Shown here: positions 4,365-39,321 of the stretch, piece by piece
How positions within the stretch are numbered: position 1 is the first letter of the stretch
How the letters are laid out: every line of letters begins with the position of its first letter
Source: an uncultured Candidatus Saccharibacteria bacterium
GTDB taxonomy: Bacteria > Patescibacteriota > Minisyncoccia > Minisyncoccales > UBA5738
Assembly (NCBI GenBank): GCA_964603475.1
Contig: CAZRVG010000001.1
Span: forward strand, 63,988-127,987
Direction of reading: 5' to 3'
Length of the DNA stretch: 64,000 nt
Position numbers and translations under genes: made by a program
Notes under the pieces: generated by a model
Seen by the model: the letters and a program-made list of their open reading frames with translations, nothing else
Databases searched by the model: none
What the model was told of the DNA's origin: nothing

Positions 4365-4688
4365 TTGACTTTTGATTTACTTTTTATGCTTCCCATCCAA
4401 AAATTGGAAAAATCAAACACCAAAGAAAATCTCTGGATCTACATCCTGGCGCTTTTGGATAAAAAGCCGCTCTACGGCTGGGAAATTCCCAAATTGATTG
4501 AGCAAAATTTTGGCTTCCGGCCGGGAAAAATCACTCCCTACCGGGTTTTTTACCGCCTCCAAGCCGATGGATTCGTCACGAGCGAAATGGAAAACCGAAG
4601 GCGGATATACAAAATCACCCCAAAAGGCAAAAAGGAATTGACCGCCGCTAAATCATTCTATAAAAATACCCTTTCAAAATTGGATTAG
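4365..4688 (+). CDS. PadR family transcriptional regulator
   Basis: winged-helix PadR signature LYGWEI...GKITPYRVFYRLQADGFV...RRIYKITPKGKKEL. Confidence 0.7.
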   Translation: MTFDLLFMLPIQKLEKSNTKENLWIYILALLDKKPLYGWEIPKLIEQNFGFRPGKITPYRVFYRLQADGFVTSEMENRRRIYKITPKGKKELTAAKSFYKNTLSKLD

Positions 4689-6248: not shown

Positions 6249-6280
6249 ACACAAAAGCGCCGCAAGGCGCTTTTGTGTTT
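6249..6280 (+). terminator. Intrinsic terminator after efp
   Basis: acacaaaagcgcc-gcaa-ggcgcttttgtgt then T-rich. Confidence 0.7.
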
Positions 6281-6326
6281 ATATGTTTATATGTTTATAT
6301 GATTATATGATTATATGATTATATGT
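6277..6326. repeat. Tandem 8-mer microsatellite (ATGTTTAT)x3 (ATGATTAT)x3
   Basis: read directly; same ATGATTAT/ATGATTAA arrays recur at 19945-19984, 39275-39312, 61441-61480. Confidence 0.85.
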
Positions 6327-6330
6327 CCAA

Positions 6331-10309: not shown

Positions 10310-10494
10310 AACGCTTTTCTAACTTCCGGCGTTTAAACTTTCTCTATGGCTTCGTCAATCCAAACAAAAAAGCAACCGGTTAAATAATTGATCGCCAGTT
10401 TTCTAAATAAAGCTTTTTGCCAAACAAAGCTTGAGTTTAATAATATCGGGCCGCAGGCCCCGACAACAAAAACTAACGAGATTCTTTAAGTTAT

Positions 10495-10578
10495 GCCCCC
10501 ATGATACACCAAATCCCCCCATTGTCAACCCCCGCATACGCGCGAGCTCACCCCCTCCTTTCCCCATAACCCCGCCAC
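10495..10578 (-). other. G-tract cluster (six or more GGGG+ runs on minus strand) with G-quadruplex potential, downstream of hsdR
   Basis: plus strand reads gccccc...cccccc...caaccccc...caccccctcc...tccccataaccccgcc in an otherwise AT-rich genome. Confidence 0.5.
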
Positions 10579-10657
10579 ACGAAATAATCAGTTATAAACC
10601 GCTGTATCCGCGCATGGCGCGGCATATGAATTTTTAGCAAATCGGAAACCAAATAAT

Positions 10658-13600
10658 TCATTTAAAAACATTAGTTAGAGCGCTCATATCACGATAATTC
10701 TCATAAACAAAGTTGTAAACTTCCTGCCCTTTGGCTTCACAATCCCGTTCGGAATAAGTCGGCTCCGGTAATTTTGGATACAAGACATCATTTATTGTTA
10801 TTTTTACTCCTGCCCGCAATGGTTCAAAGTCTCGCCATCCAGGTATCAACTTTTGCATCAATTTTTCCAAAAGCTCTTTTGCCGCTGCTCGAACCTTCGC
10901 TATTTCATCCGGATTCAAATTATCTTTAACTAATAAATCAAAAATTGCTAGTTCGTCTTCGGAAAGACCCTCTTTTGTTGCGCGTTGTTCCTCCGCGTTT
11001 AAATCTTTGGCTAAATCAACCAAATCGCTTAAGAGCTGGTCAATGTCATGCGCCCCGCTATTATATTCTTTAAGAAGCGAATTAAAACGCTCCATAAATC
11101 TTGCTCGTTTTCTATTACGTCTTACCATTTCTTTAATCTTATCCTCTAATTCTGCGCGCAAGCTCTCCGCCTGCAGATTCTTATTTTCGAGCTTAGCAAA
11201 AAAGTCATGGAGCGCATCGGCGTCCAATATACTCAGATCTCGAAGGCGTTTATATTGCGGAATAACATATTCACCCGCTTGAATGGAGCGATCGAGCAAA
11301 TCCTCTAAGTCATTTTTTACTTGCGATACATCAATACTCGCAAGACCAACGTCATACACACGCGAAGCTATTACTCGTATTGCTGTCGCTTGATCGTAAT
11401 AATCATCGGCGGCTGGATCAGGCAAAACTGAACGATAACTACTGTAAACATCGCCCGCGATATTTAACATTTTCTTTTTCTTTTCTTGATCTTGAGTAAT
11501 AGCATTGGCCGCATGTTCTATCAATAGGAGTTTTTCTTCTGCTGGTGCTAAAATAATCTTTTCCAAATGGATACCATTGCCATCTAAAAATTTATTGGCC
11601 AAGCTTAGAACGCTTTTAAGCTCATCAATCAATTCTTCTTTGCTGCGGATTATTTCATCATTTCCTCCCGTGGTTGTAGCATAGAGCGATAATGCTTTTT
11701 CAATATTGCGGAACACACCGATATAATCCACAATTAAACCATTCTTTTTCCCCGGGGAAACCCGATTTGCACGGGCAATTGCTTGCATTAAGGTATGATT
11801 TTTTAATGGCTTGTCCAGATATAAAGTTGAAAGATTGGGTACATCAAAACCCGTCATCCACATTGCGCATACAAAAACAATGCGCAAATTGCTGTCTGAT
11901 TTTTTAAATTCTTCTTCAAGGTTGCCTTGCGCAATGCGCGCGCGTAACGGTCGCATGTCAATCTCAAATGGCTCAAGATCGGCAATTTCATTTTGGCTTT
12001 GGCTTACCATAACCGCCATATCCACGTGTTCGTGTCGGGAAAGCTGTTCTTCTATTTTGCTACGCTGATAATCATCCGTAGCCCGCGAAAGATCCATTCT
12101 TAATTTGGCCAAATATCGTTCCCATTCCGCATGTACTTTGGTATACATCCGCACCGCGGTCTTTTTGTCTACCGAAACCACCATTGCCTTACCATCATAG
12201 CCACGGCCAACGAAATGATTTACAATATCCCGCGCAATAGCGTTTAAACGATCTTCGCGGGTTACCAAGTGATAAAATGTCGAAAACTCTTGCTCTAATT
12301 TTTCCTCTTGATCGTCATTCAAATCATAAAAATCCATCACTTTGCCAATTTCATCTTCGAGGTGATCATTCACATTTTCCAAACGAGGCACCCGGTTTTC
12401 ATAATATAAGGGAACCGTTGCTCCATCACGAACCGAATCGCCAAAGTTATATTGAGAAACATAATCGCCAAAGGTTTCGCGGGTTTTTTCTTCGCCCGAA
12501 GCCATAAGCGGCGTTCCGGTAAAACCGATAAACGAGGCATAAGGCAGCGCGCGCCGCATATTTTGCGCCATACGGTCATATTGGGTGCGATGCGCTTCAT
12601 CAGTCATCACAATAATGTCATTACGTTTCGAAATTGCTCCCGGGATATCCTGAAATTTTTGAATTGTTGTAAAAATTTGGCGATGATCGGCTTGCAATAA
12701 TTCCTTAAGATGAACAATTGATTCGGCGTGCACTTCTTTTTCATATATCGCCCCTACGTTGGCAAAATTTTTATAAGCTTGCCGGTCAAGATCACTGCGG
12801 TCGGTTACAACAACAAAAGTAAAATTACCGTCAAGCTTTCGGAAAACTTTTTGCGAAAGATACACCATTGAATAAGATTTTCCCGATCCTTGAGTGTGCC
12901 AAAAAACGCCAAGCTTGCCAAAGTTGGTTTTGCGATCAATAACATTATTAAACGCCCGGTTAACTCCGTGATATTGAAAATAACGCGGTACGATCTTTTT
13001 TGTTTCTGCGAGCGATTCGTCAAATAATATAAAATTTTCGAAAATATCCATCAAGCGCCGCTTATCGCAAATACCGCTAATGAGCGTTGTTAAATCATTT
13101 TTTGCCGGCTCCTCTTCATTTTCCGCTTTTTTCCATTCATTAAAAAATTCGTAAGGCGAAGTTAATGACCCAAATTTATTTTCGATTCCATTAGAAATAA
13201 CAATCCCCATATTGTACCAAAAAATTTTAGGAATTGTATCTTTGTAATCGCGCAGATTATCTCGGTACGCATCCACTAAACTTTTATGCGCGGCTTTGAG
13301 TTCCATTAGTATCAAAGGAATACCGTTTACGAACAACACCACATCCGGCCGGCGTGTATACATTTCGCCCACAATCCATAACTGCGAAACGCACAGAAAA
13401 TCATTGTTTTCCGGTTTTTTAAAATCAAAAAACCTCACCCGTTCGGTTTTGATTTCTCCGTCCGTCCCGGGAACTTGAACGCTCGCCCCATCGCGCAAAA
13501 GCGCATAAACCTCTTTATTCGCGTTCGCCAAAGAAAGATGCGACCGATCGCGCATTATTTGCTCTATTGCTTGATCCAAAGCCTCGCGCGGCAACCCCGG

Positions 13601-13786
13601 ATTCAATTTTTCCAGCGCCAACATCAATCTTTTCTCAAGCACCACTTCCCCCCGATGCGCCCGCCCCAGTTTGGCATCATCAACATCGGCATAAGCATCA
13701 ATACAACACTCCAAACCGCCCCATAATTCCCTTATGATTTTTATCACCGTCCGCTCCACCAAATTGTCCTCAGAAAATTGATTCAT
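10658..13786 (-). CDS. hsdR: Type I restriction enzyme R subunit
   Basis: 1042 aa; N-terminal nuclease region, SF2 helicase motifs (TQGSGKS, VMTDEAHRTQ, FTGTP), C-terminal HsdR domain. Confidence 0.9.
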   Translation of the reverse strand: MNQFSEDNLVERTVIKIIRELWGGLECCIDAYADVDDAKLGRAHRGEVVLEKRLMLALEKLNPGLPREALDQAIEQIMRDRSHLSLANANKEVYALLRDGASVQVPGTDGEIKTERVRFFDFKKPENNDFLCVSQLWIVGEMYTRRPDVVLFVNGIPLILMELKAAHKSLVDAYRDNLRDYKDTIPKIFWYNMGIVISNGIENKFGSLTSPYEFFNEWKKAENEEEPAKNDLTTLISGICDKRRLMDIFENFILFDESLAETKKIVPRYFQYHGVNRAFNNVIDRKTNFGKLGVFWHTQGSGKSYSMVYLSQKVFRKLDGNFTFVVVTDRSDLDRQAYKNFANVGAIYEKEVHAESIVHLKELLQADHRQIFTTIQKFQDIPGAISKRNDIIVMTDEAHRTQYDRMAQNMRRALPYASFIGFTGTPLMASGEEKTRETFGDYVSQYNFGDSVRDGATVPLYYENRVPRLENVNDHLEDEIGKVMDFYDLNDDQEEKLEQEFSTFYHLVTREDRLNAIARDIVNHFVGRGYDGKAMVVSVDKKTAVRMYTKVHAEWERYLAKLRMDLSRATDDYQRSKIEEQLSRHEHVDMAVMVSQSQNEIADLEPFEIDMRPLRARIAQGNLEEEFKKSDSNLRIVFVCAMWMTGFDVPNLSTLYLDKPLKNHTLMQAIARANRVSPGKKNGLIVDYIGVFRNIEKALSLYATTTGGNDEIIRSKEELIDELKSVLSLANKFLDGNGIHLEKIILAPAEEKLLLIEHAANAITQDQEKKKKMLNIAGDVYSSYRSVLPDPAADDYYDQATAIRVIASRVYDVGLASIDVSQVKNDLEDLLDRSIQAGEYVIPQYKRLRDLSILDADALHDFFAKLENKNLQAESLRAELEDKIKEMVRRNRKRARFMERFNSLLKEYNSGAHDIDQLLSDLVDLAKDLNAEEQRATKEGLSEDELAIFDLLVKDNLNPDEIAKVRAAAKELLEKLMQKLIPGWRDFEPLRAGVKITINDVLYPKLPEPTYSERDCEAKGQEVYNFVYENYRDMSALTNVFK

Positions 13787-13803
13787 AAAATCATATTATT
13801 TTT

Positions 13804-14427
13804 TTATAATTTCAACTCTTCATCTTCTGGCCAATATAATAAAGCCGCCGTTCGTTGTTTCGTCAACAGAACACTAACCCGCACAAAATAATTTGGACAG
13901 CAACCAAGGATATAAATACTTTTGTTATAAGGAAAATGCTCTTTTATATTACGCGGCAAAATGTCAATTTTTAATAATAAAGAATCTTTATAGTTTTTTT
14001 CTATTGGCGTAATGAAGGTTTCTTTTTTGAGTGATTCTTTGCATAAATCGAGCGGTAATGTATAAAAATAAAGCAAATTAAAAGGAGCAACAACCGGAAA
14101 CCAATTCAAAGTTCTTTCGTACAATATTTCGCCAGGGTAATGTCTTCTAAAATGCATTTTCTGATTGCCGGGATGTAGCGTGATATGAAAACCACTCTTG
14201 ACCGGAAAAGACTTTTCAGGTACATGAAAATTGAATTTATTATCTTTAAATCGGCTTATGCCACATTCAACCGCCAATCCAATATTTTCATCACTATGAA
14301 ATTTTGAAATAAAAACCAAAGAGCCGTCGGACGAAAATTTTATACTGCCCAAATTAATTTTTCTAATTCCCTGCTTAATAACAAGCCGAAATTTTTTTGT
14401 ATTTTTGTAAACTAATTGATCCGCCAT
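13804..14427 (-). CDS. Hypothetical protein embedded between hsdS and hsdR (no recognisable domain)
   Basis: 207-aa ORF, 4-nt gap to hsdS stop and 17-nt gap to hsdR start, same strand; no motif recognised. Confidence 0.5.
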   Translation of the reverse strand: MADQLVYKNTKKFRLVIKQGIRKINLGSIKFSSDGSLVFISKFHSDENIGLAVECGISRFKDNKFNFHVPEKSFPVKSGFHITLHPGNQKMHFRRHYPGEILYERTLNWFPVVAPFNLLYFYTLPLDLCKESLKKETFITPIEKNYKDSLLLKIDILPRNIKEHFPYNKSIYILGCCPNYFVRVSVLLTKQRTAALLYWPEDEELKL

Positions 14428-14431
14428 ATAG

Positions 14432-15697
14432 TTATGTTATCTCTCTTTTCCCCGTTACCAATTGCGAAATTAAAAGATCGCGAGTTTTGGCTAAATTTTG
14501 ATTTTTTTCTTGTAACGAAATTATCATATCGAAATACTTTCCAAACAACCCGCTAAATTCATCAAGAATAACTGAATTTGGAATAATAATTTTTATATTC
14601 TTAACTTGTACCGGACTTAAATTTTGTTGCGCTGCTCCGTTAGACATTGCTTCCAATTTTTGCTGAAATTTTTTTTGCCTAAATAGTAAATAAGTAAATT
14701 CTCTATTATTTTTATTCACTAAATCAAGTTTTGCAACTCGCTGATTCAACACATGATCTAACCCGTATACAAGACAAATACGCCCAACATTTCCCGTCAG
14801 TGAAAGTAATATGTCGCCATTTTTTAACACACATGCCGCAGGTAATTTTGCGGGCAACTCGTCAATAAACGAATCAAAATTTAATACAAATTTACCATCA
14901 TGAACATTTTTAATTGTAACAATTTTATATTTACCAATTTTTTTGTATGTTGAACCCTTAAACGGAAAGCCTGAAATTACATTTGCGATTTCTCCAATAG
15001 ACCCGATACTCCACCCTTCAGGGATCATACCGCATTCCTTGCCGGAATCAACCATTTTCACTTTTTCGTGCCCGGGGAATTTAAACTTCACGAACCATTC
15101 GTTATAAAGCCTCTGCGCCATTTCCTCCAAAATCCTGATCCGCTTCTCGTTATTTTCAATCAAATCATCATATGCCGAAAGTACTTCCGCAATTTTGTCT
15201 TGTTCTTTTACTTCCGGCACGTTAAGAGTTATGGTCTTAATTTTATTAAGGCTTAAATTATCTTGAGCGGTTCCTTTTGCGGTTTTCTGAAAACTTTTTT
15301 TTGCGTGATCAAGTGCATATTTAACAAATTTAACGTTCGATTTTTTCGAATCGGCAATAAAGCCAACTACACTATCGGGAAAACACGCCGGATAAGATAA
15401 AATTGCATTTTCAGCAATATTGGCCGCAATTGTTATGCAAAGCGTCTCCGCAGGCCAAAGCTTACTCTGCTTTAATCCGGTTTCATTATAAGTTTGTTCG
15501 TGTTTTGTAACATAAAAATTTGAATGTTTAATATCGGAAGTTTGAATAAATGGATAATCGCCTCCATACAAAAAACTATCGTTGCGCGGTCGATGTTTTG
15601 ATTTCCCACGAGCAACGGTTCCAAGTTTGAATAATGATTGTTTTGTCCAAGTCGCCATATCTAAATTTTTATTCTTTTTAACATAAAACCTTGACAA
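14432..15697 (-). CDS. hsdS: Type I restriction-modification specificity subunit (two target recognition domains)
   Basis: duplicated TRD architecture, conserved central and C-terminal coiled regions (LEEMAQRLYNEWFVKF; ISQLVTGK). Confidence 0.85.
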   Translation of the reverse strand: MSRFYVKKNKNLDMATWTKQSLFKLGTVARGKSKHRPRNDSFLYGGDYPFIQTSDIKHSNFYVTKHEQTYNETGLKQSKLWPAETLCITIAANIAENAILSYPACFPDSVVGFIADSKKSNVKFVKYALDHAKKSFQKTAKGTAQDNLSLNKIKTITLNVPEVKEQDKIAEVLSAYDDLIENNEKRIRILEEMAQRLYNEWFVKFKFPGHEKVKMVDSGKECGMIPEGWSIGSIGEIANVISGFPFKGSTYKKIGKYKIVTIKNVHDGKFVLNFDSFIDELPAKLPAACVLKNGDILLSLTGNVGRICLVYGLDHVLNQRVAKLDLVNKNNREFTYLLFRQKKFQQKLEAMSNGAAQQNLSPVQVKNIKIIIPNSVILDEFSGLFGKYFDMIISLQEKNQNLAKTRDLLISQLVTGKREIT

Positions 15698-15832
15698 TAT
15701 ACCAGCTATGCTGTTATTCTTTATGTAGAAGCATGCAATAATAACTTTGAGCGCGCTTCGGTGCTCCCCCGGAGAATCCGGGGCTTCAGCCGGGGAATTC
15801 CACGCTCTCAGATCGCTGCTTCAACAAAGATC

Positions 15833-16525
15833 TCAATCATCGGATTGAGTTTTTTGTTTTTTGCGGTTGCTTATCCAATAATCTTTGAACAATTCTTTTT
15901 CAGCGACAATATTATTTTTTAAAATTCCATAAAATTCATCGCCGCTTTCCTTTTTGTTCAGATAAGCCGCGACCGCGCCGGCGAGCCAATCAACAATTTG
16001 AATATTCGGATATTGTTTGGAATCCACCGTTTGGATTCTAACTTGCGCTCCTTTTACTAAATTTGGCAACAATCGCGCGGTTAAATTATCAATAAATTCC
16101 TGCTTGCCCACGCCCTTTAATCTTCTTTGATCGCAAAATATATGCAATAAAGATTCTTGCAAGGGCAAATATAAATCCAAAGTTTCCCCAACCAATTGGG
16201 TGTAAAGCAATCCGCTTTTTAACGACTTTTTTCCTCTGAATTCCAGCGGTATATTTTGACAGTCAAGATAGGTGTAAAATATGCGCACATCCATTTTCGC
16301 AATCTGGTGCAAAGTTCGCAATTTTAAATTTTTATCAATTCCCGAATCGGAAAACTTAATTTCCGATTGTTTGCGCATTGCTTTTGGGAATTTTAGCGCG
16401 CACCAAGATTTGAATTTCTTATGAGTTCTTTTGGGTTCGCCAACTGTAAATGACGCGATTAAAAAATAGCGTTCATTTGTCTTTTTATTGAATTGTCCGC
16501 TTTCATCTAAAAAGATATAAGCCAT
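15833..16525 (-). CDS. DUF3800 family protein inserted in the hsd operon
   Basis: N-terminal AYIFLDESG motif typical of DUF3800; between hsdM and hsdS. Confidence 0.6.
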   Translation of the reverse strand: MAYIFLDESGQFNKKTNERYFLIASFTVGEPKRTHKKFKSWCALKFPKAMRKQSEIKFSDSGIDKNLKLRTLHQIAKMDVRIFYTYLDCQNIPLEFRGKKSLKSGLLYTQLVGETLDLYLPLQESLLHIFCDQRRLKGVGKQEFIDNLTARLLPNLVKGAQVRIQTVDSKQYPNIQIVDWLAGAVAAYLNKKESGDEFYGILKNNIVAEKELFKDYWISNRKKQKTQSDD

Positions 16526-16557
16526 ACTTTTTCAACAGATTATTTTGACAATTAAAT

Positions 16558-17613
16558 TCACAAAATTTTTTTCCAATCGTCTTGAATTTTATTTTCAAGT
16601 TCGTGCGCATCTTTAGTTAATGCAATAAACTCACTCATTAATTCTTTCATCCGCGTTTCAAAATCCGCGTTGTCAATTTCATTTTCAATAATCTCCACAT
16701 ACCTCCCCGGATTCAGCGAATAATCATTGGCCCGAATTTCTTCCAATGTCGCCATCTTGCACCGGCCTTTTATATCTTTGTATTTGCCCGCATTTTCCTC
16801 GCCGCGATACCGTCGCACAATTCCCGCGATTTCTTGGATTTGGTCATCCGTCCATTCGCTGTGAGCGCGATCAATTGGCGTGAATATATCCTGCGCGTTG
16901 ATAAACAATACTTTCTTTTCTCTATTTGTTCCGCGCTTGCCTTTGTCAAAAAACCATAACATGCAAGAAAGCGTGGCGTTCATAAACATATTCGTGCCAA
17001 CGGAAATAATCACATCGATAAAGCCGGCTTCAACCATTTTTTGACGAATCTCTTTTTCTTTATTCCCGGCATCGCTGGCGCTATTTGCCATAACAAAACC
17101 TGCGCGCCCTTTGTCATTCAACGCGCTGGCAAACATCTGCATCCAAAGGTAGTTGGCATTGCTGATTTCGTTTTTGCCGGTAAGCGGCAGGCCGTAATTA
17201 TAACGCTGGTCGCCTTGCAGGCGCGCCGGATCAATTACTATTTGCCCGTTTTTATCCTTTCCTTTCACATTAAAGGGAGGGTTTGCAAGGACGAAATCAA
17301 ATTGTCCGATGCTTTTATGTAAATCTTCATAAAACGAATTAGCCAGTTCAATTTTTCCCGAAAGCCCGTGAATCGCCAGATTCATTTTGGAAACTTTCAA
17401 ATTGCTTTCTCCTTTTTCCTGGCCATAAATATGGATTTCTTCCATTATCGGCCGATAGGTTTTGTGCTTGGCGATAAATTTTGCGGATTGGACGAACATC
17501 CCGCCCGAACCGCAAGCCGGATCATAAATCTTGCCGTGATAGGGCTCTATAACTTCCGCTAAAAGCTTAACGATTGATTGCGGCGTGAAAAATTCTCCGC
17601 CAACCCGATATTT
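16558..17613 (-). pseudogene. hsdM: Type I RM N6-adenine methyltransferase subunit, N-terminally truncated (HsdM_N domain absent; first ATG lies after SAM-binding motif I)
   Basis: reading frame open from 17613 encodes ...GGEFFTPQSIVKLLAEVIEPYHGKIYDPACGSGG-MFVQ... then NPPF catalytic motif; in-frame stop at 17614-17616; only about 200 nt to the tRNA, so no room for the 150-aa N-domain. Confidence 0.7.
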
Positions 17614-17785
17614 TCAAAATTTCGCGAAGCCTGCTGTCCTTGATTTATGTTATTTTGCCCGCGTCTAACCTCATTTTTTGGGATAAAACGCGTTGGAGGT
17701 TATTGGTTAGCTTATCATGGCGGCGGGAAAATTTAAAGGTAAAATTTGGGCATTTTGATTTTTTCATTTGCTATTAACTATTAAC

Positions 17786-17815
17786 TAAAACTGCCGCCAT
17801 ATGGCGGCAGTTTTG
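17786..17815. terminator. Perfect palindromic hairpin aaaactgccgcc-atat-ggcggcagtttt just 3' of tRNA-Glu
   Basis: read directly; flanked by A/T runs on both strands. Confidence 0.7.
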
Positions 17816-17820
17816 CGGCG

Positions 17821-17893
17821 GCCCCAACCGGAGTCGAACCGGTGTTCCCTGGCTGAGAACCAGATGTCCTGGGCCGCTAGACGATGGGGCCAA
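17821..17893 (-). tRNA. tRNA-Glu (anticodon CTC)
   Basis: cloverleaf folded by hand: acceptor GGCCCCA/TGGGGCC, D arm GTCT..GGAC, anticodon loop TTCTCAG, T loop TTCGACT. Confidence 0.75.
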
Positions 17894-17920
17894 AAAGTTG
17901 CCTAACAATGCGATTATAAA

Positions 17921-19939: not shown

Positions 19940-19984
19940 ATTTATCTTTTGTTTAAATGTTTAAATGATTATATGATTAAATGA

Positions 19985-20854
19985 TTAAATGACCCTTTCT
20001 ATCGCGCGCAATTTTGCCGAAGCCGCGCGCGAATTGGCGTCAATTTCCTTGGTCGAAGGAACAATCGGCTTTTTAAACAGCAGTTTTGCCCTGCCGGATT
20101 CGGCCAGCTTTTTAAATTCTTCTTTTACGACCTTATCCTCCAAAGAATGGAAAGATATCGCCGCCATTCGCCCCCCCGCGTTCAAAATTTCAAAACCGGA
20201 CACAATCCCCCGCCTGATATTTTCAAACTCATCGTTAACCGCGACGCGCAACGCCTGGAAAATTCTCGCCCGCATGCTTCGAATACGCGGATAAGGCAGA
20301 CCAAAAATTATTCGCGCCAGATCCCGGGTGGTCGTTATTTCTTTTTTGCTTCTGGCATTCACAATCGCGCGGGCAATTTTTTTGGCGCTTTTTTCTTGGC
20401 CGAAATTTTTAAAAATTTCGGTCAAATCCTTCTCGGAGCATCGGTTAATCATTTTTGCCGCGTCAACCCGCGAATCGCTATCATATCTCATATCCAGCGG
20501 TTCGTCTTTGGCAAAAGAAAACCCTTTGCCGCTTTCATCCAAATGCCATGACGACATCCCCAAATCCAGCAATATTCCTTTTATGTTTTCAAAGTCGCGC
20601 GATCGCGCGATATCGGCAATATTGGCATAGGAATCGTTAACAATCGCCAATCTCGGATTTGCCCTCGCTTCTTCGGGCAAAGACAATATGTTTTCTTTGT
20701 CCCGCTCAATCCCCAACACTCTTCCTTTGGGCGCGGTTTTTTCCAAAATCGCCAAACTGTGCCCGCCGCGGCCAAAAGTGCAATCAATAAAGTTCTCATT
20801 GGGTTTGGGATCAAGCGCGGCAATCGTTTCGTTTAATAAAACCGGAATATGCAC
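19985..20854 (-). CDS. rsmH: 16S rRNA m4C1402 methyltransferase RsmH (MraW)
   Basis: MHIPVLLNE...DCTFGRGGHS...DLGMSS signature. Confidence 0.9.
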   Translation of the reverse strand: MHIPVLLNETIAALDPKPNENFIDCTFGRGGHSLAILEKTAPKGRVLGIERDKENILSLPEEARANPRLAIVNDSYANIADIARSRDFENIKGILLDLGMSSWHLDESGKGFSFAKDEPLDMRYDSDSRVDAAKMINRCSEKDLTEIFKNFGQEKSAKKIARAIVNARSKKEITTTRDLARIIFGLPYPRIRSMRARIFQALRVAVNDEFENIRRGIVSGFEILNAGGRMAAISFHSLEDKVVKEEFKKLAESGRAKLLFKKPIVPSTKEIDANSRAASAKLRAIERVI

Positions 20855-24997: not shown

Positions 24998-25150
24998 ACA
25001 CCAACATTCTGCCCTGTCCCGCACCGTGATTTGCCTTTATATTTTATGCTTTAGCATGGCAAATCTCTGGTGCAGGAAGAATGTTGGAATGTTTGCTAAT
25101 CTGATTCTTTAATTCATTTGCCAGAGGACAAAATTCAGATAGCCGGCAAA
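24998..25150. mobile_element. MITE-like inverted-repeat element, family 1, copy A (with conserved 55-bp 3' extension)
   Basis: ccaacattct...agaatgttggaatgtt terminal inverted repeats, internal caccgtgatttgcc / ggcaaatc and atgc-ttta-gcat hairpins; near-identical to copies at 28649-28803 and 39097-39195. Confidence 0.65.
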
Positions 25151-25172: not shown

Positions 25173-27317
25173 TTATTCTCCGGAGATAATCTTGTTGATT
25201 TTTTCGCGGGTTAATCGGCCGACATATCCCGATCCATGGCTCAAACCAATGGGTGATAAAATTTCACCGGCATATTTTTCTTGGAATTGAATCACCGCGG
25301 TTTTGGTGATACCGCCAAAATCGCCCGTTGGCACCACGGCAAGGTCTTGTGATTTGAGAACTTCCTGCAAGCATTTTACTTGTGTGTTTCCTCTAATGCC
25401 ATAAAACAAGTTTTCCGTAATCATCCCGCATGAAAATTCGCTGCCTTCACCGGTTAATATTTGCAATTGCCTTGTCAAAGATTCAATCAAATTTTTAATT
25501 TGGTTAATTTTATTGATAAGTTGTTCGCGCGTTATCCCTGCATTATCAGCAAACTCACCAATATTCGCGATATTTGAATTAGCGGTTTGGGGCGCACCCT
25601 TCGTCTGTTGAGAAACGATTTCTACGGCAACGCTATCCGTTGCGGATCCCGCCGAATTGGAACAGGTGATAATATATTCTTTTGGACTACCGATGGTTAT
25701 TCTCATTGCCCCGCTCTTCGTCTTGTTCCCCGACCAACTGCCGGAAGCTTGGCAAATATCAGCATTGGTTGAATTCCAAAGCAGTGTCACGGGTTCGCCA
25801 GCGTTTATCAAGGCTTTTTTTTGATAGCCATCGGCCGTGATATCCACTGTCGGTAAATTGACACCAATATTATTGGTAGTGTCGGTATTGTTATTACCAT
25901 TGATGTTATTATTGTCGCTTACGCTAATATTACTATCGCTAACAATACAAACTCCGTTTGAACAAGCTTCTCCGGTCAAGCATTTTGAATTGTCATCAGC
26001 CCATCCTGTACCCAATAAATTACAAACCTTGCAACCCGAAACCGCCATCGGAACGCAGGCAAAGCAAATTCCGTTTGAACATGTCTGCCCCGATGGACAA
26101 GCGATAATCGTCGACCATTCAACACAAGCGTCATTTTCATAATTTTTGCAAAACTGATAGCCGTTGCCGTTGCAATGCTTCAAGCTGCCGGTAAGGCATA
26201 TTCCCGATGAACAGGCCTTTTCATCCGGGCAAAGAGTAATTTGCGACCACTCCAAACAAGAGTCGGAATCGTAGTTGCCGCAGGTCTGAAACCCATTGCC
26301 GCTACACTGCTTGATGCCCGCAGAAGAACACTCATTAACACATTGCGCAACGCATTGTCCGCTGGAACAGATTTGCCCCGAAGCGCAACTGCCGCAGTTT
26401 AATGTGCCGCCACATCCATTGGAAGCTGTACCACAATTATAGTTCAAAGAAGCACAGGTTTTGGGGACGCAATTGGCAACGCATTGATTTGAGGAACAAG
26501 AATATCCTGTCGCGCAATTTCCGCAATTTAACGCATTACCGCACCCATCGGAAATCGTACCGCAGGCATAACCCAAGGAAGCACAGGTTTTGGGAATACA
26601 GTCGGCAATACATTTATTGGCAACGCAGGTATATCCCGTAGCACAAGTGCCGCAACTTAGCGTGCCGCCACATCCATTGGAAGCTGTACCACAATTATAG
26701 TTCAAAGAAGCACAGGTTTTGGGGACGCAATTGGCAACGCATTGATTTGAGGAACAAGAATATCCTGTCGCGCAATTTCCGCAATTTAACGCATTACCGC
26801 ACCCATCGGAAATCGTACCGCAGGCATAACCCAAGGAAGCACAGGTTTTGGGAACGCATGAATTGACCACATTGATCGATAGATTTGGAGTTTTGTCACC
26901 GAACCACGCCACTCCGTCTTGCACCATTCGCCATTGGAAATTATAAACGCCGGCGACCAAGGGCGCCGTAACGTTAAAGGTGAAGGTTTTGTTTGTGTTG
27001 AATTTAATTATCTCGGAACTGCTCAAATAAACACGGTTAACCCCCCACGTTTTATTATCTTGCGGATTTTGCGAGCCAAGACGACATTTTTTCGCCTCGC
27101 TCCAATAAAGCGCTTGTTCCCATCCCGGTTGTCCCCATCCAGCTATGCTAGGATTTTTCATCGTTATTGAAACCGAATACGTCTTACCCGCATCCATTTT
27201 TGAAGGCACCGACTGAGAAACAAAGTTTGCATACATTGCAAACCCCGCCGCAGGAAAACAAACTATCCCGCAAAAAATTAATAACAGTGATGCCAATTGA
27301 TTTTTTGATTTTTCCAT
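25173..27317 (-). CDS. Secreted cysteine-repeat surface protein with C-terminal peptidoglycan-binding (PG_binding_1-like) domain
   Basis: signal peptide; five or more 37-aa modules CVPKTCASLGYxCGTxSxGCGxxLxCGxCATGYxCxxNxCVAx; Ig-like domain; C-terminal GDFGGITKTAVIQFQEKYAG motif. Confidence 0.6.
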   Translation of the reverse strand: MEKSKNQLASLLLIFCGIVCFPAAGFAMYANFVSQSVPSKMDAGKTYSVSITMKNPSIAGWGQPGWEQALYWSEAKKCRLGSQNPQDNKTWGVNRVYLSSSEIIKFNTNKTFTFNVTAPLVAGVYNFQWRMVQDGVAWFGDKTPNLSINVVNSCVPKTCASLGYACGTISDGCGNALNCGNCATGYSCSSNQCVANCVPKTCASLNYNCGTASNGCGGTLSCGTCATGYTCVANKCIADCIPKTCASLGYACGTISDGCGNALNCGNCATGYSCSSNQCVANCVPKTCASLNYNCGTASNGCGGTLNCGSCASGQICSSGQCVAQCVNECSSAGIKQCSGNGFQTCGNYDSDSCLEWSQITLCPDEKACSSGICLTGSLKHCNGNGYQFCKNYENDACVEWSTIIACPSGQTCSNGICFACVPMAVSGCKVCNLLGTGWADDNSKCLTGEACSNGVCIVSDSNISVSDNNNINGNNNTDTTNNIGVNLPTVDITADGYQKKALINAGEPVTLLWNSTNADICQASGSWSGNKTKSGAMRITIGSPKEYIITCSNSAGSATDSVAVEIVSQQTKGAPQTANSNIANIGEFADNAGITREQLINKINQIKNLIESLTRQLQILTGEGSEFSCGMITENLFYGIRGNTQVKCLQEVLKSQDLAVVPTGDFGGITKTAVIQFQEKYAGEILSPIGLSHGSGYVGRLTREKINKIISGE
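26403..26856. repeat. Intragenic tandem duplication: two identical segments of about 195 bp with a 259-bp period inside the Cys-repeat gene
   Basis: gtgccgccacatccattggaagctgtacc...aagcacaggttttggga occurs at 26403-26597 and 26662-26856. Confidence 0.85.
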
Positions 27318-28648: not shown

Positions 28649-28803
28649 ACATTCCAACATTCTGATTAGCCGCGCGTCGTGATTTGCCTTTGTGTTTTAT
28701 GCTTTAGCACGGCAAATCTCTGATGCGCGAATAATGTTGGAATGTTTGCTATTCCGATTCTTTAATTCATTTGCCAGAGAACAAAATTCAGATAGCCGGC
28801 AAA
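28649..28803. mobile_element. MITE-like element, family 1, copy C (with 55-bp extension, overlaps TspO 3' end)
   Basis: acattccaacattct...ataatgttggaatgtt, extension tgctattccgattctttaattcatttgccagagaacaaaattcagatagccggcaaa. Confidence 0.65.
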
Positions 28804-39034: not shown

Positions 39035-39096
39035 CTTTTAACAGAATCATTATTCGCTTATTCGTGCGAATATGCCCATAACTTCAATCCAACAAA

Positions 39097-39265
39097 AACA
39101 TTCCAACATTTTGCCCTGTCGCGCACCGTGATTTGCCCTTGTATTTTTATGCTTTAGCATGGCAAATCTCTGATGCGCGAAGAATGTTGGAATGTCCGCT
39201 ATCGGGCAATGCCATATATTCCATATGGAATATAGAAAGTCCGGTGAGGCTTGATCTCACAGAAT
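39097..39265. mobile_element. MITE-like element, family 1, copy D with tail carrying the attccatatggaat palindrome and ccggtgagg...ctcac hairpin
   Basis: aacattccaacatttt...agaatgttggaatgtccgctatcgggcaatgccatatattccatatggaatata...tccggtgaggcttgatctcacag. Confidence 0.65.
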
Positions 39266-39321
39266 CCAAAATGATTATATGATTGTATGATTAGATGTTT
39301 AAATGATTAAATGCCCGCCAA

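What the first reader, a model, noticed from the sequence alone, without database searches (positions are those of the whole stretch)
10495..17893. Type I RM island at tRNA-Glu with two embedded unknown genes, a beheaded hsdM and a G-quadruplex-prone tail
The hsdR-X-hsdS-DUF3800-hsdM block (10658-17613, all minus strand) abuts tRNA-Glu(CTC), a classic island integration site. Three oddities stand out. First, a 207-aa gene with no recognisable domain sits between hsdS and hsdR (13804-14427), with 4-nt and 17-nt spacings, so it is co-transcribed. Second, a DUF3800 gene lies between hsdM and hsdS. Third, the hsdM reading frame carries [11 protein letters not shown] and DPACGSGG before the first ATG and hits a stop only 38 codons upstream, so the whole HsdM N-domain is missing and the first Met lies after SAM motif I. 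This suggests either a decayed system or a repurposed R/S pair with the accessory proteins. At the other end, immediately 3' of hsdR, an otherwise AT-rich genome shows a roughly 85-nt tract with six or more G4+ runs on the transcribed strand (10495-10578). This is a G-quadruplex candidate, or a foreign DNA remnant marking the island boundary.
Basis: partly seen in the sequence, partly recalled or inferred. Interest (0 to 1): 0.65.

Follow-up and report, generated by a model that had tools for sequence, protein, structure and literature searches.

The report
Broken restriction operon carrying defence cargo

Summary
On the minus strand lie hsdR (10658-13786), a 207-aa gene X (13804-14427), hsdS (14432-15658), DUF3800 (15833-16525) and a headless hsdM (homology 16561-17601), about 200 nt from tRNA-Glu.

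- **hsdM:** it lost about 586 bp (leader, start codon, 175 codons) in a clean internal deletion. Three independent assemblies cross the junction, so this is not an assembly error. The R-M system is most likely inactive.
- **Missed feature:** a DUF3800-V RNA (Rfam RF02964, 69.5 bits) sits on the plus strand at 15727-15823, with its own promoter-like site and terminator, convergent with DUF3800. The same layout occurs in 6 of 6 related loci tested. DUF3800 models as an RNase HII-like fold with its motifs intact.
- **X:** a real, purifying-selected and rare family (62 clusters among 1.84 billion representatives). It is all-beta, with no Pfam, PADLOC or PDB match. About half of its lineages sit between hsdS and hsdR. 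The rest sit beside AbiEii, DUF4238, OLD, AIPR and similar genes.
- **G tract:** six G4+ runs are real and non-random, but the tract fails canonical G4 loop rules. It lies just outside the island edge and holds a near-consensus promoter facing the DEAD-box helicase gene.

The locus is ordinary in kind (cargo embedded in R-M), with two interesting unsolved passengers.

The parts
17817..17891 (-). tRNA-Glu (CTC), followed by its terminator palindrome at 17787-17814
   Evidence: ARAGORN; Rfam tRNA 53.1 bits; perfect 14+14 nt palindrome I12
17616..17656 (-). Retained piece of the hsdM upstream leader, and the left flank of the deletion
   Evidence: 85% identical to L005 675-714 and L004 1981-2020, which lie about 60 nt upstream of the intact hsdM start codon in those loci
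17602..17615 (-). Deletion junction: 14 nt of filler between the leader remnant and hsdM codon 176
   Evidence: Nucleotide homology to L005 jumps from 714 to 1301, so about 586 bp are missing. The junction is crossed by L002 (100% identity) and L049 (99.99%), both from other samples.
16558..17613 (-). hsdM remnant. Homology to HsdM residues 176-522 spans 17601-16561. The first start codon is ATG 17499, just after motif I (DPACGSGG). Motif IV (NPPF) is retained.
   Evidence: Translation; Pfam N6_Mtase from profile position 25, with no HsdM_N; tblastn 93% identity to L005 HsdM from residue 176; dN/dS 0.047 against L005
15833..16525 (-). DUF3800 protein (230 aa), a predicted RNase HII-like nuclease with D7, E8, D79, D132 and Q176-x-x-D179 intact
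   Evidence: Pfam PF12686 46.5 bits against a cut-off of 21; invariant columns in 26 homologues; AF2 pLDDT 91.4; Foldseek PDB best match RNase HII 1EKE, E 5e-7
15691..15720 (+). Promoter-like site for the small RNA: TTGACA, 18 nt, TATTCT, with TG before the second hexamer
   Evidence: Consensus scan, 10 of 12 matches. It ends 7 nt before the RNA match. CTTGACA and a -10-like box are conserved in L040, L045 and L046.
15727..15823 (+). DUF3800-V structured RNA, convergent with the DUF3800 gene. Its 3' end lies 10 nt from the DUF3800 stop codon.
   Evidence: Rfam RF02964 69.5 bits against a gathering score of 37.4, E 1.6e-14, full length 1-96. 17 of 29 pairs show compensatory changes across 5 loci. 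Same layout in 6 of 6 related loci.
15832..15856 (+). Terminator-like hairpin (CTCAATCATCGGATTGAG) plus T run that ends the small RNA. It overlaps the last DUF3800 codons, and the scan also calls it on the minus strand.
   Evidence: Terminator scan on both strands; hairpin and T run conserved in 4 of 5 aligned loci, all but L041
14432..15658 (-). hsdS (408 aa from ATG 15658; the mechanical ORF starts at TTG 15697), with two target-recognition domains
   Evidence: Pfam Methylase_S, two stretches; PADLOC Specificity_I 313 bits; 408-aa call in L001
13804..14427 (-). X: 207-aa all-beta protein of an unannotated family. Conserved core H81-x-S-L84-H85-P86 and W109-x-P111-V.
   Evidence: 15 homologues at 46-98% identity; 62 clusters among 1.84 billion representatives; AF2 pLDDT 81, pTM 0.79, 17 strands; no PDB match with Foldseek E below 0.2; no Pfam hit for any of 39 members; dN/dS 0.09-0.17
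10658..13786 (-). hsdR (1042 aa), apparently intact: PD...ELK nuclease motif, GSGKS Walker A, DEAH box
   Evidence: Pfam HSDR_N, SWI2_SNF2, T1R_D3-like and T1RH-like_C; TIGR00348 514 bits; motifs read from the translation; dN/dS 0.058 against L004
10582..10657 (-). hsdR 3' flank that still belongs to the mobile hsd unit. Homology to L004-L007 ends at 10582.
   Evidence: blastn: window 14497-10582 matches L004 5991-9919 at 85.8%
10495..10578 (-). G-run tract (six G4+ runs) just outside the island edge. It contains the promoter-like site TTGACA (10528), 16 nt, TATCAT (10501). A terminator-like hairpin lies at 10460-10448, and the DEAD-box helicase ATG is at 10309.
   Evidence: Run density unique in the window, reached in 0 of 200 shuffles, but no G4 regex match with loops up to 12 nt; promoter 11 of 12 matches; RNA fold z-score -0.55

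Best explanation
A mobile type I R-M operon of about 7.1 kb (roughly 10582 to 17700) sits downstream of tRNA-Glu in what is probably a Patescibacteria-type genome.

**Shown**
- Its methyltransferase gene lost about 586 bp, comprising the leader, the start codon and codons 1-175: the whole HsdM_N domain and the start of the catalytic domain.
- Any product starting at the first remaining start codon lacks SAM motif I.
- The operon carries two passenger modules in its two inter-gene slots.
  - Between hsdM and hsdS: a DUF3800 RNase HII-like nuclease plus a convergently transcribed, self-contained DUF3800-V small RNA gene with a promoter-like site, a 97-nt structured RNA and a terminator.
  - Between hsdS and hsdR: X, a member of a rare all-beta family with no conserved acidic or catalytic set.

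**Inferred**
- Type I restriction needs an R2M2S complex, so the locus can no longer methylate or assemble a restriction complex. It is r-m-, and the loss is recent because hsdS and hsdR are still intact.
- Both passengers are autonomous anti-phage or abortive-infection cargo of the kind known from prrC, rlo genes and TgvAB ('guilt by embedding'). They can outlive the R-M system that carries them.
- The DUF3800 nuclease is a toxic effector held in check or directed by its cognate structured RNA. This would be analogous to msDNA holding retron type VII DUF3800 effectors, or to the RNA antitoxin of type III toxin-antitoxin systems.
- X is a non-enzymatic binding partner (sensor, adaptor or antitoxin-like). 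In other genomes it sits immediately upstream of interchangeable toxin-like genes. Here it has no such partner other than hsdR.
- The G-run tract is native flank or junction DNA carrying the helicase promoter, not part of the system.
For: **hsdM deletion**
- Profile and tblastn start points.
- Both deletion flanks map onto intact loci L004 and L005.
- There is no start codon between the stop and ATG 17499.
- The junction is present in independent assemblies L002 and L049.
- No other hsdM lies in the window.

**Foreign and mobile origin**
- About 4000 HsdM relatives with E below 1e-100, the best 120 at 74-99% identity and carrying source names from six different phyla.
- G+C is lower, 0.32-0.40, across 13-17 kb.
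- A recombination scar in L004-L007 (45 nt of the hsdR 5' end fused to the hsdS 3' end) has different cargo in front of it, PIN_12 or AAA_15/21.

**DUF3800 module**
- Pfam hit, intact motifs, and an RNase HII fold.
- Rfam DUF3800-V at 69.5 bits, with promoter-like site and terminator.
- The same convergent layout in 6 of 6 loci, a conserved promoter and terminator, and 17 of 29 covarying pairs.
- Literature: DUF3800 is a retron type VII effector (PMC7736814) and a CRISPR class 2 accessory RNase H-fold nuclease (PMC10910872, PMC12669027). The gene-RNA association is known, but its function is not (PMC5737381).
- A weak PADLOC candidate hit, PDC-M04A.

**X**
- Conserved and under purifying selection.
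- Found between hsdS and hsdR in about 9 distinct lineages.
- Elsewhere it lies next to AbiEii, DUF4238, OLD-type AAA_15+TOPRIM with a Type ISP enzyme, AAA_13, and AIPR.
- Only H85, L84, W109, P111 and P158 are invariant across 39 members, so no catalytic set is apparent.

**Concept**
- Cargo embedded in R-M loci is established (PMC11411939; bioRxiv 10.1101/2024.01.29.577857; PMC12707154 for PrrC).
Against: - No experiment or methylome is available. Inactivity of the R-M system is inferred from hsdM alone, and only 64 kb of the genome was examined, so a second compatible hsdM elsewhere cannot be excluded.
- The hsdM remnant, hsdS and hsdR show no decay (dN/dS 0.05-0.06). That fits a very recent deletion, but also continued use.
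- Defence roles for DUF3800 with its RNA and for X rest on gene neighbourhood only. Related DUF3800-V loci are not all in obvious defence contexts.
- X's supposed pairing with downstream effectors could simply reflect tight gene packing in small genomes.
- The HEPN-like motif in five partners was spotted by eye, and Pfam does not confirm it.
Confidence: 0.7

Rival explanations
1. The R-M system is still active. A second, compatible HsdM encoded elsewhere in the genome, or a rare non-canonical start in the remnant, supplies the methylase function, so HsdS and HsdR remain in use.
For: hsdS and hsdR are fully intact, and the hsdM remnant shows no relaxed selection (dN/dS 0.047-0.058). Only 64 kb of the genome was seen.
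Against: No other hsdM lies in the window. No ATG, GTG or TTG lies upstream of 17499 in the open frame. Even read from the stop codon, the frame lacks 175 N-terminal residues, including HsdM_N. The native leader and promoter region downstream of L005 position 714 is also deleted.
Confidence: 0.12
2. The beheaded hsdM is an assembly artefact: a chimeric join at a conserved hsdM stretch.
For: Contigs from other samples break inside the conserved hsdM stretch. L001 and L003 start at 17540, and L049 ends at 17568. That is typical of graph tangles caused by the many co-occurring hsdM genes.
Against: The junction (17602-17615) lies outside the break zone. It is spanned, together with the leader remnant and the tRNA flank, by L002 (17844-8150, 100% identity), by L049 (26596-17568, 99.99%) and by the window contig itself. 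These come from different samples and assemblers.
Confidence: 0.02
3. X is a dedicated accessory subunit or regulator of HsdR (restriction control, or a substitute for HsdM after its loss), not independent cargo.
For: X lies 17-18 nt upstream of hsdR in the window and in L004-L007. It sits between hsdS and hsdR in about 9 lineages, alongside at least three different HsdR subfamilies.
Against: About half of the X lineages have no hsd genes within 5 kb and instead precede AbiEii, DUF4238 or other genes. In L008, L011 and L029 another gene separates X from hsdR. X co-occurs with intact hsdM in L004-L008 and L012, so it does not replace it.
Confidence: 0.12
4. The DUF3800 gene and its RNA form a housekeeping RNA- or DNA-processing module, or a mobile-element maintenance function, that merely landed in the hsd operon and has no defence role.
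For: In L046-L048 the module lies among housekeeping genes and next to a tRNA. The discoverers could propose no function (PMC5737381).
Against: The family is patchy and occurs in accessory contexts: Fic, MazG and a SLFN-like helicase in L041, and a ResIII restriction enzyme with a DUF433/DUF5615 pair in L045. DUF3800 serves as a retron effector and a CRISPR accessory protein (PMC7736814, PMC12669027). Here it is embedded in an R-M operon.
Confidence: 0.2
5. The G-run tract forms a functional G-quadruplex in the hsdR 3' UTR or in DNA, and regulates transcription or marks an integration site.
For: Six G4+ runs within 90 nt, unique in the window and reached in 0 of 200 shuffles. The tract sits exactly at the island homology edge.
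Against: No four consecutive runs have loops of 12 nt or less, as the loops are 4, 6, 17, 8 and 14 nt. The tract contains a near-consensus sigma-70-type promoter facing the next gene. The RNA fold is not better than shuffles (z -0.55). No second copy or att repeat exists.
Confidence: 0.1

Closest known systems
Type I R-M operons with embedded defence genes (EcoprrI/PrrC; Campylobacter rlo genes; V. cholerae TgvAB; 'guilt-by-embedding' cargo of Payne et al. 2024)
   Same: Passenger genes occupy the hsdM-hsdS and hsdS-hsdR slots, with tight spacing. Cargo differs between otherwise homologous hsd loci: PIN_12, AAA_15/21, a DUF1080-like gene, a SIR2-like gene and X. The concept is documented in PMC11411939, PMC12707154 and bioRxiv 10.1101/2024.01.29.577857.
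   Different: The host R-M system here is disabled by an hsdM deletion. Neither passenger is a characterised defence protein. One passenger brings its own antisense-oriented RNA gene and terminator into the operon.
DUF3800 genes with DUF3800 RNA motifs (Weinberg et al. 2017; Rfam RF02964, DUF3800-V)
   Same: Full-length, high-scoring DUF3800-V RNA next to a DUF3800 gene, followed by an intrinsic terminator, as described for several DUF3800 motifs (PMC5737381).
   Different: Here the module sits inside a type I R-M operon. For this subfamily I also find a fixed convergent layout, with the RNA 3' end 9-33 nt from the stop codon in 7 of 7 loci. The held text of the paper does not state this. Function is still unknown.
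Retron type VII (RT + ncRNA/msDNA + DUF3800 effector)
   Same: An RNase H2-like DUF3800 effector paired with a structured non-coding nucleic acid (PMC7736814). The same fold match to 1EKE was reproduced here.
   Different: There is no reverse transcriptase in the locus. The window protein keeps Q176-x-x-D179, whereas retron VII proteins lack the conserved Q (PMC7736814). The RNA is an Rfam DUF3800-V motif, not a retron msr/msd.
Type III toxin-antitoxin systems (ToxIN-like: endoribonuclease plus RNA antitoxin)
   Same: A nuclease gene immediately adjacent to a dedicated small structured RNA with its own terminator. Many unrelated RNA structures serve one protein family (PMC5737381).
   Different: The RNA is single-copy, not a tandem repeat array. 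It is convergent rather than upstream on the same strand. The protein has an RNase H fold rather than a ToxN/Kid-like fold. No toxicity data exist.
AbiE (AbiEi antitoxin + AbiEii nucleotidyltransferase) and HEPN/MNT-type two-gene modules
   Same: In L019, L021 and L022, X sits 2-6 nt upstream of an AbiEii gene, in the position normally held by AbiEi. Five other partners carry an R[NDS]xIxH, HEPN-like motif.
   Different: X has no AbiEi, HTH or MNT signature in Pfam or PADLOC and is all-beta. In the window it has no toxin-like partner at all.

Membership tests
Type I restriction-modification system (complete, functional) | HsdR with a PD-(D/E)xK nuclease and an SF2 translocase | tested here: met
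   Pfam HSDR_N, SWI2_SNF2 and ResIII; TIGR00348 514 bits against a cut-off of 284. PD...ELK, GSGKS and DEAH motifs read in the translation.
Type I restriction-modification system (complete, functional) | HsdS with two target-recognition domains | tested here: met
   Methylase_S in two stretches; PADLOC Specificity_I 313 bits covering 21-419.
Type I restriction-modification system (complete, functional) | Full-length HsdM (HsdM_N plus an N6_Mtase domain with SAM motif I) that has a start codon | tested here: not met
   No HsdM_N. N6_Mtase matches from profile position 25. TIGR00497 scores 99.6 bits, below its cut-off of 242.75. The first start codon lies after DPACGSGG. 175 codons are deleted relative to L005.
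Type I restriction-modification system (complete, functional) | Sequence-specific m6A methylation of host DNA | not testable with these tools
   Needs PacBio or ONT data from native DNA.
DUF3800 (PF12686) RNase H-like nucleases | Pfam match above the gathering score | tested here: met
   46.5 bits against 21, residues 3-187.
DUF3800 (PF12686) RNase H-like nucleases | N-terminal DE motif and C-terminal QxxD motif (PMC7736814) | tested here: met
   D7, E8 and Q176-x-x-D179 are invariant in 26 homologues and present in the window protein.
DUF3800 (PF12686) RNase H-like nucleases | RNase H (type 2)-like fold | tested here: met
   AF2 pLDDT 91.4. Foldseek PDB best match 1EKE (RNase HII), E 5e-7, probability 1.00, TM about 0.55.
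DUF3800-V RNA (Rfam RF02964) | Covariance-model score above the gathering threshold, full length | tested here: met
   69.5 bits against 37.4, model positions 1-96 of 96, plus strand only.
DUF3800-V RNA (Rfam RF02964) | Adjacent DUF3800 gene and covariation-supported structure | tested here: met
   The RNA lies 10 nt from the DUF3800 stop. 17 of 29 pairs show compensatory changes among 5 loci. 6 of 6 other loci have the same layout.
DUF3800-V RNA (Rfam RF02964) | Actually transcribed as a discrete RNA | not testable with these tools
   Only promoter-like and terminator-like sites, conserved in relatives. Needs RNA-seq or RACE.
tRNA-targeted integrative genomic island | Integrase or recombinase at the island edge | tested here: not met
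   Only five genes lie between 10582 and 17700, and none is an integrase.
tRNA-targeted integrative genomic island | Direct repeat of the tRNA 3' end at the distal boundary | tested here: not met
   No repeat links 17780-17900 with 10400-10700.
tRNA-targeted integrative genomic island | Empty site in a close relative | not tested
   All related contigs found carry the island (L001-L003, L049).
G-quadruplex-forming sequence | Four or more G runs separated by short loops (1-7 nt, or relaxed to 1-12 nt) | tested here: not met
   The loops are 4, 6, 17, 8 and 14 nt. The regex finds no match in the tract at runs of 3 or more, or 4 or more, with loops up to 12 nt.
G-quadruplex-forming sequence | K+-dependent G4 folding | not testable with these tools
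   Needs CD, melting or probing experiments.
R-M-embedded defence cargo ('guilt by embedding') | Recurrent location inside R-M operons in unrelated genomes | tested here: met
   For X, about 9 distinct lineages lie between hsd genes, alongside three HsdR subfamilies, plus one lineage next to a Type ISP enzyme. For DUF3800, only this locus and L008.
R-M-embedded defence cargo ('guilt by embedding') | Demonstrated anti-phage activity | not testable with these tools
   Needs phage-challenge assays.
AbiEi-type antitoxin (as a candidate identity for X) | AbiEi or HTH domain signature | tested here: not met
   No Pfam, NCBIfam or PADLOC hit for X or for any of 39 family members. The model is all-beta.

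The most novel reading that the evidence does not exclude
X founds a new modular defence family. It would be a non-enzymatic all-beta sensor or antitoxin-like partner that pairs with interchangeable toxic effectors: HEPN-like RNases, the AbiEii nucleotidyltransferase, SIR2-like, DUF4238 and membrane proteins. In R-M-embedded versions such as this one, it may couple to HsdR.

In parallel, the DUF3800 nuclease with its convergent DUF3800-V RNA may be an RNA-restrained RNase H-like abortive-infection module. That would give a function to the eleven orphan DUF3800 RNA motifs.
Probability: 0.25. Interest if true: 0.7.

Novelty: new member of a known kind. Interest (0 to 1): 0.5.

Why it matters
**Unsolved RNAs in a defence setting.** Type I R-M operons are known carriers of extra anti-phage genes, so the overall architecture is not new. 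This locus adds a complete DUF3800 nuclease and DUF3800-V RNA pair inside a defence operon. Together with the strictly conserved convergent layout found here, that gives a concrete and cheap test for RNAs whose function I could not find described in the held literature (the eleven DUF3800 motifs of 2017): is the RNA an antitoxin or a guide for an RNase H-like effector?

**A new candidate family.** X is rare, has no Pfam, PADLOC or PDB match, and repeatedly sits in front of toxin-like genes or hsdR. It is a good candidate for a new defence component.

**A snapshot of turnover.** The clean hsdM deletion and the recombination scar in sister loci show how R-M operons decay and swap cargo while the passengers persist.

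Tried and rejected
**X: searches that found nothing**
- A profile search against PDB sequences gave only noise.
- Pfam on all 39 family members gave nothing consistent.
- X was not found in plasmid or phage collections.

**X's partners**
- HEPN identity of the five partners is not confirmed by Pfam even at E up to 10. I keep it only as a motif-level hint.

**Island integration**
- No att repeats or integrase were found, so integration at the tRNA is not claimed.
- The search for an empty site or an intact allele failed. The best full-length HsdM is only 93% identical. Exact look-ups of the flanking helicase and FtsI proteins returned nothing.

**G tract**
- The canonical G4 regex fails. The RNA fold is no better than shuffles. 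The tract is not repeated elsewhere in the window.

**Co-occurrence and other checks**
- X and DUF3800 occur together in an hsd locus only here and loosely in L008, so I treat them as independent cargo.
- No Rfam RNA was found next to the L008 DUF3800 gene or the first L041 DUF3800 gene.
- The idea that TGA is read as a sense codon (code 25) to rescue hsdM is rejected, because hsdR ends in TGA.
- No literature on DUF3800 RNA function after 2017 was found in the held library.

Full report
**1. What is there**

The minus strand between 10658 and 17613 carries five reading frames in a row:
- hsdR, 10658-13786, 1042 aa.
- A 207-aa gene called X here, 13804-14427.
- hsdS, 14432-15697 as a mechanical ORF. 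Gene callers on the identical contig L001 start it at the ATG equivalent to 15658, giving 408 aa.
- A DUF3800 gene, 15833-16525.
- An hsdM-like frame that is open from 17613 but has its first start codon at 17499.

tRNA-Glu(CTC) lies at 17817-17891. Pfam, NCBIfam and PADLOC agree on hsdR, hsdS, DUF3800 and the methylase domain. The window averages about 44% G+C, and the block is somewhat lower at 0.32-0.40.

**2. The headless hsdM**

*Extent of the loss.* The open frame reads ...[35 protein letters not shown](17499)FVQ.... Profile matches start deep inside the family models: N6_Mtase position 25 of 311, PADLOC MTase_I position 174 of 653, and TIGR00497 position 198 of 515. The TIGR00497 score of 99.6 bits is below its cut-off of 242.75, and HsdM_N is absent.

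*Comparison with intact relatives.* Sister loci recovered through X carry full-length HsdM of 522-524 aa. The L005 protein is 93% identical to the window remnant, but only from its residue 176. No other part of the 64-kb window encodes the missing 175 residues.

*Nature of the break.* At nucleotide level, window 17601 matches L005 1301, while window 17656-17616 matches L005 675-714, which lies about 60 nt upstream of the L005 start codon. This is therefore an internal deletion of about 586 bp with both flanks retained and 14 nt of filler at 17602-17615. It removed the proximal leader, the start codon and 175 codons. It is not a truncation at an island boundary.

*Not an assembly artefact.* Contig L002 (another sample) covers window 17844-8150 at 100% identity. 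L049 (yet another sample) covers 26596-17568 at 99.99%. Both span the junction. L001 and L003 start at 17540 and L049 stops at 17568, so several assemblies break inside the conserved motif region. That is expected, because about 4000 close HsdM relatives (E below 1e-100; the listed best hits are 74-99% identical) exist in metagenomes, with source names from six different phyla.

*Consequence.* No ATG, GTG or TTG lies between the upstream stop and 17499, so any product lacks SAM motif I. TGA is a genuine stop here, since hsdR ends in TGA. From established knowledge of type I enzymes, restriction needs R2M2S and methylation needs M2S (summarised in PMC11411939). I therefore infer the system is r-m-. 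hsdS and hsdR are intact, and the remnant shows no relaxed selection (dN/dS 0.047-0.058 against sister loci), so the deletion is recent. A compatible hsdM elsewhere in the genome cannot be excluded.

**3.

*The RNA gene.* An Rfam scan finds a full-length DUF3800-V RNA (RF02964) at 15727-15823 on the plus strand, antisense to the operon. It scores 69.5 bits against a gathering score of 37.4, with E 1.6e-14. A promoter-like site lies directly upstream: TTGACA at 15691, 18 nt, then TATTCT ending at 15720, with TG before the second hexamer. Directly downstream is a hairpin with a T run at 15832-15849 and beyond. The 174-nt gap between DUF3800 and hsdS is therefore a self-contained small-RNA gene, convergent with DUF3800. 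Its terminator overlaps the last DUF3800 codons, and the scan also calls the hairpin on the minus strand.

*Conservation of the layout.* I fetched loci for four homologues of the window DUF3800 protein, most of them named Patescibacteria by their sources. All six loci scanned carry a DUF3800-V RNA on the opposite strand, 9-33 nt past the stop codon. An alignment shows the CTTGACA and -10-like boxes conserved in four of the five aligned loci, and the terminator likewise. 17 of 29 predicted pairs show compensatory changes among only five sequences.

*The protein.* It keeps D7, E8, D79, D132 and Q176-x-x-D179, all invariant in 26 homologues. It models at pLDDT 91.4. Its best PDB matches are archaeal RNase HII structures (1EKE, E 5e-7).

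*Literature.* These results agree with published work:
- DUF3800 genes are associated with eleven unrelated RNA motifs of unknown function, several of them followed by terminators (PMC5737381).
- DUF3800 is the RNase H2-like effector of type VII retrons (PMC7736814).
- DUF3800 is an accessory nuclease in some Cas12a2 and type VI-F loci (PMC10910872, PMC12669027).

I found no later paper in the held library that assigns a function to the RNAs.

**4. Gene X**

*A real gene.* X has 15 relatives at 46-98% identity in the 5.8-billion-protein collection and 62 clusters in the exhaustive search of 1.84 billion representatives. Apart from fragments, all are stand-alone proteins of about 200-240 aa. 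dN/dS is 0.17 and 0.09 against two relatives.

*Structure and sequence.* The AlphaFold model (pLDDT 81, pTM 0.79) is all-beta with 17 strands. Foldseek finds nothing in the PDB below E 0.2. In BFVD it finds a single unnamed 212-aa viral protein (E 2.4e-3, TM 0.50). The other fold libraries were unavailable. Across 39 diverse members only L84, H85, W109, P111 and P158 are invariant, with H81, P86, V112 and a few others nearly so. No conserved acidic or catalytic set exists, which argues for a binding role rather than an enzyme (inference).

*Genomic context,* from 39 loci:
- About nine distinct lineages place X between hsdS and hsdR, or between hsdM and hsdS in L017. They accompany at least three different HsdR subfamilies and intact hsdM genes.
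- One lineage follows a Type ISP enzyme and an OLD-type AAA_15+TOPRIM nuclease (L024).
- Other lineages sit beside AbiEii (L019, L021, L022, 2-6 nt downstream of X), DUF4238 (L026, L027), an AAA_13 ATPase (also L026, L027), and AIPR (L032).
- Several lineages sit in no recognisable defence setting.
- In most lineages a same-strand gene follows X within 20 nt. Five of ten such partners carry an R[NDS]xIxH motif reminiscent of HEPN RNases, against 0 of 262 other ORFs of 150 aa or more in the same loci. The pattern was chosen after looking, and Pfam does not confirm HEPN.
- Another partner is weakly SIR2-like, and another has three hydrophobic segments.
- X was not found in plasmid or phage collections, and only once among GTDB species representatives, in an Omnitrophica MAG.

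My reading, which is inferred and not shown, is that X is defence-island cargo. It is probably the constant, non-catalytic partner of variable toxic effectors. In the window it has no such partner except hsdR.

**5. Cargo shuffling**

In L004-L007 a 38-aa ORF just upstream of X consists of two fused pieces: the first 45 nt of hsdR (95.6% identical to window 13787-13743) and the last ~66 nt of hsdS. In front of this scar sits PIN_12 in L004, L006 and L007, or an AAA_15/21 ATPase in L005. This is a recombination scar. It shows that 'hsdS 3' end, cargo, hsdR 5' end' units are exchanged between hsd operons, and that the window's simple hsdS-X-hsdR arrangement is the older one. The hsdM-hsdS slot is likewise variable: DUF3800 plus RNA here, a 145-aa unknown in L005, and nothing in L004. 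X and DUF3800 co-occur in an hsd locus only here and loosely in L008, where DUF3800 lies beyond hsdR on the other strand. I therefore treat them as independent passengers.

**6. Boundaries, tRNA and the G tract**

*Boundaries.* Homology to the sister hsd loci runs from about 17656 down to 10582. By eye there is a further short match near 17697-17682. No integrase and no att-like repeat are present, and no empty site could be retrieved. Integration at tRNA-Glu is therefore plausible but undemonstrated.

*G tract.* The tract at 10495-10578 lies immediately outside the homology edge. Its six G4+ runs are real and non-random (0 of 200 shuffles), but the loops of 4, 6, 17, 8 and 14 nt fail G4 rules even with loops allowed up to 12 nt. 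The RNA fold is unremarkable (z -0.55). The tract contains one of the two best sigma-70-type matches in the region: TTGACA at 10528, 16 nt, TATCAT ending at 10501, 11 of 12 matches. This site faces the DEAD-box helicase gene (ATG 10309), with a terminator-like hairpin at 10460-10448 in between. I regard the tract as promoter-bearing flank DNA. A long-loop G4 is not excluded.

**7. Comparison and verdict**

In kind this is a known thing: a type I R-M operon carrying embedded passengers, as with PrrC, the rlo genes and TgvAB, and as in the 'guilt by embedding' survey that counted 3,231 embedded protein families in BREX, DISARM and type I loci (PMC12707154, PMC11411939, bioRxiv 10.1101/2024.01.29.577857).

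It fails the membership test for a complete type I system, because the hsdM feature was tested and not met. It passes those for DUF3800 and for the DUF3800-V RNA.

Three things are new or useful:
- An instance of the DUF3800 and RNA pair inside a defence operon, together with the strictly convergent gene-RNA layout.
- An unannotated all-beta family (X) with a strong R-M and defence-island association.
- A dated snapshot of R-M decay and cargo exchange.

None of the functional readings has been tested. Interest is moderate at 0.5. The kind is ordinary, with two unsolved passengers that are cheap to test.

Noticed in passing
L004 5940-6056 (also L005 5337-5453 and L007 4405-4521; the same sequence in L006 at about 4411-4528 has no called ORF): A 38-aa ORF upstream of X is a recombination scar. 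It joins the first 45 nt of hsdR (95.6% identical to window 13787-13743) to the last ~66 nt of hsdS. Different cargo (PIN_12 or an AAA_15/21 ATPase) sits in front of it.
   Followed up: partly
window 17540-17568: Independent metagenome contigs break inside the conserved hsdM stretch: L001 and L003 start at 17540, and L049 ends at 17568. This is probably because thousands of near-identical hsdM genes in the same communities tangle assembly graphs.
   Followed up: partly
window 26377-26858: A tandem repeat with a 129-nt period (a 258-nt super-period at 96% identity) lies inside a 714-aa ORF (25173-27317, minus strand). This is a repeat-containing protein of unknown type.
   Followed up: no
window 25001-25150, 28654-28803, 39089-39201; also 19950-19994, 6273-6328, 39272-39316: Two dispersed short repeat families: one of about 150 nt at 88% identity, and one of about 45 nt at 82-89%. 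They surfaced when a sister contig was compared with the window.
   Followed up: no
L046 5705-5910 and L048 4026-4231: In these Paceibacterota-type loci the DUF3800-V RNA lies 39 nt downstream of a tRNA gene on the same strand, so it may be co-transcribed with the tRNA.
   Followed up: no
L041 3931-5776: Two tandem DUF3800 paralogues (247 and 222 aa). Only the second is followed by a DUF3800-V RNA. The 327-nt gap after the first has no Rfam match and could hold an undescribed RNA.
   Followed up: partly
BFVD entry A0A8A5LJB3 (matched to X, window 13804-14427): The only structural match to X is an unnamed 212-aa viral protein (Foldseek E 2.4e-3, TM 0.50). This may be a phage-borne relative or mimic.
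   Followed up: no
L024 2498-7932: Here X is the last gene of a Type ISP restriction enzyme, OLD-family (AAA_15 + TOPRIM) nuclease and X array. This is a second kind of restriction context for the family.
   Followed up: partly
window 10501-10528 (minus strand): A near-consensus promoter (TTGACA, 16 nt, TATCAT) is embedded between G runs and faces the DEAD-box helicase gene. A terminator-like hairpin in the 185-nt leader (10460-10448) suggests a possible regulatory 5' UTR.
   Followed up: no
protein hits (relatives of window 16558-17613): This HsdM subfamily is 75-93% identical across Gammaproteobacteria, Ignavibacteria, Omnitrophica, Firestonebacteria, Margulisiibacteriota, Patescibacteria and even a Nanoarchaeota MAG. 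That points to very wide recent horizontal spread.
   Followed up: no
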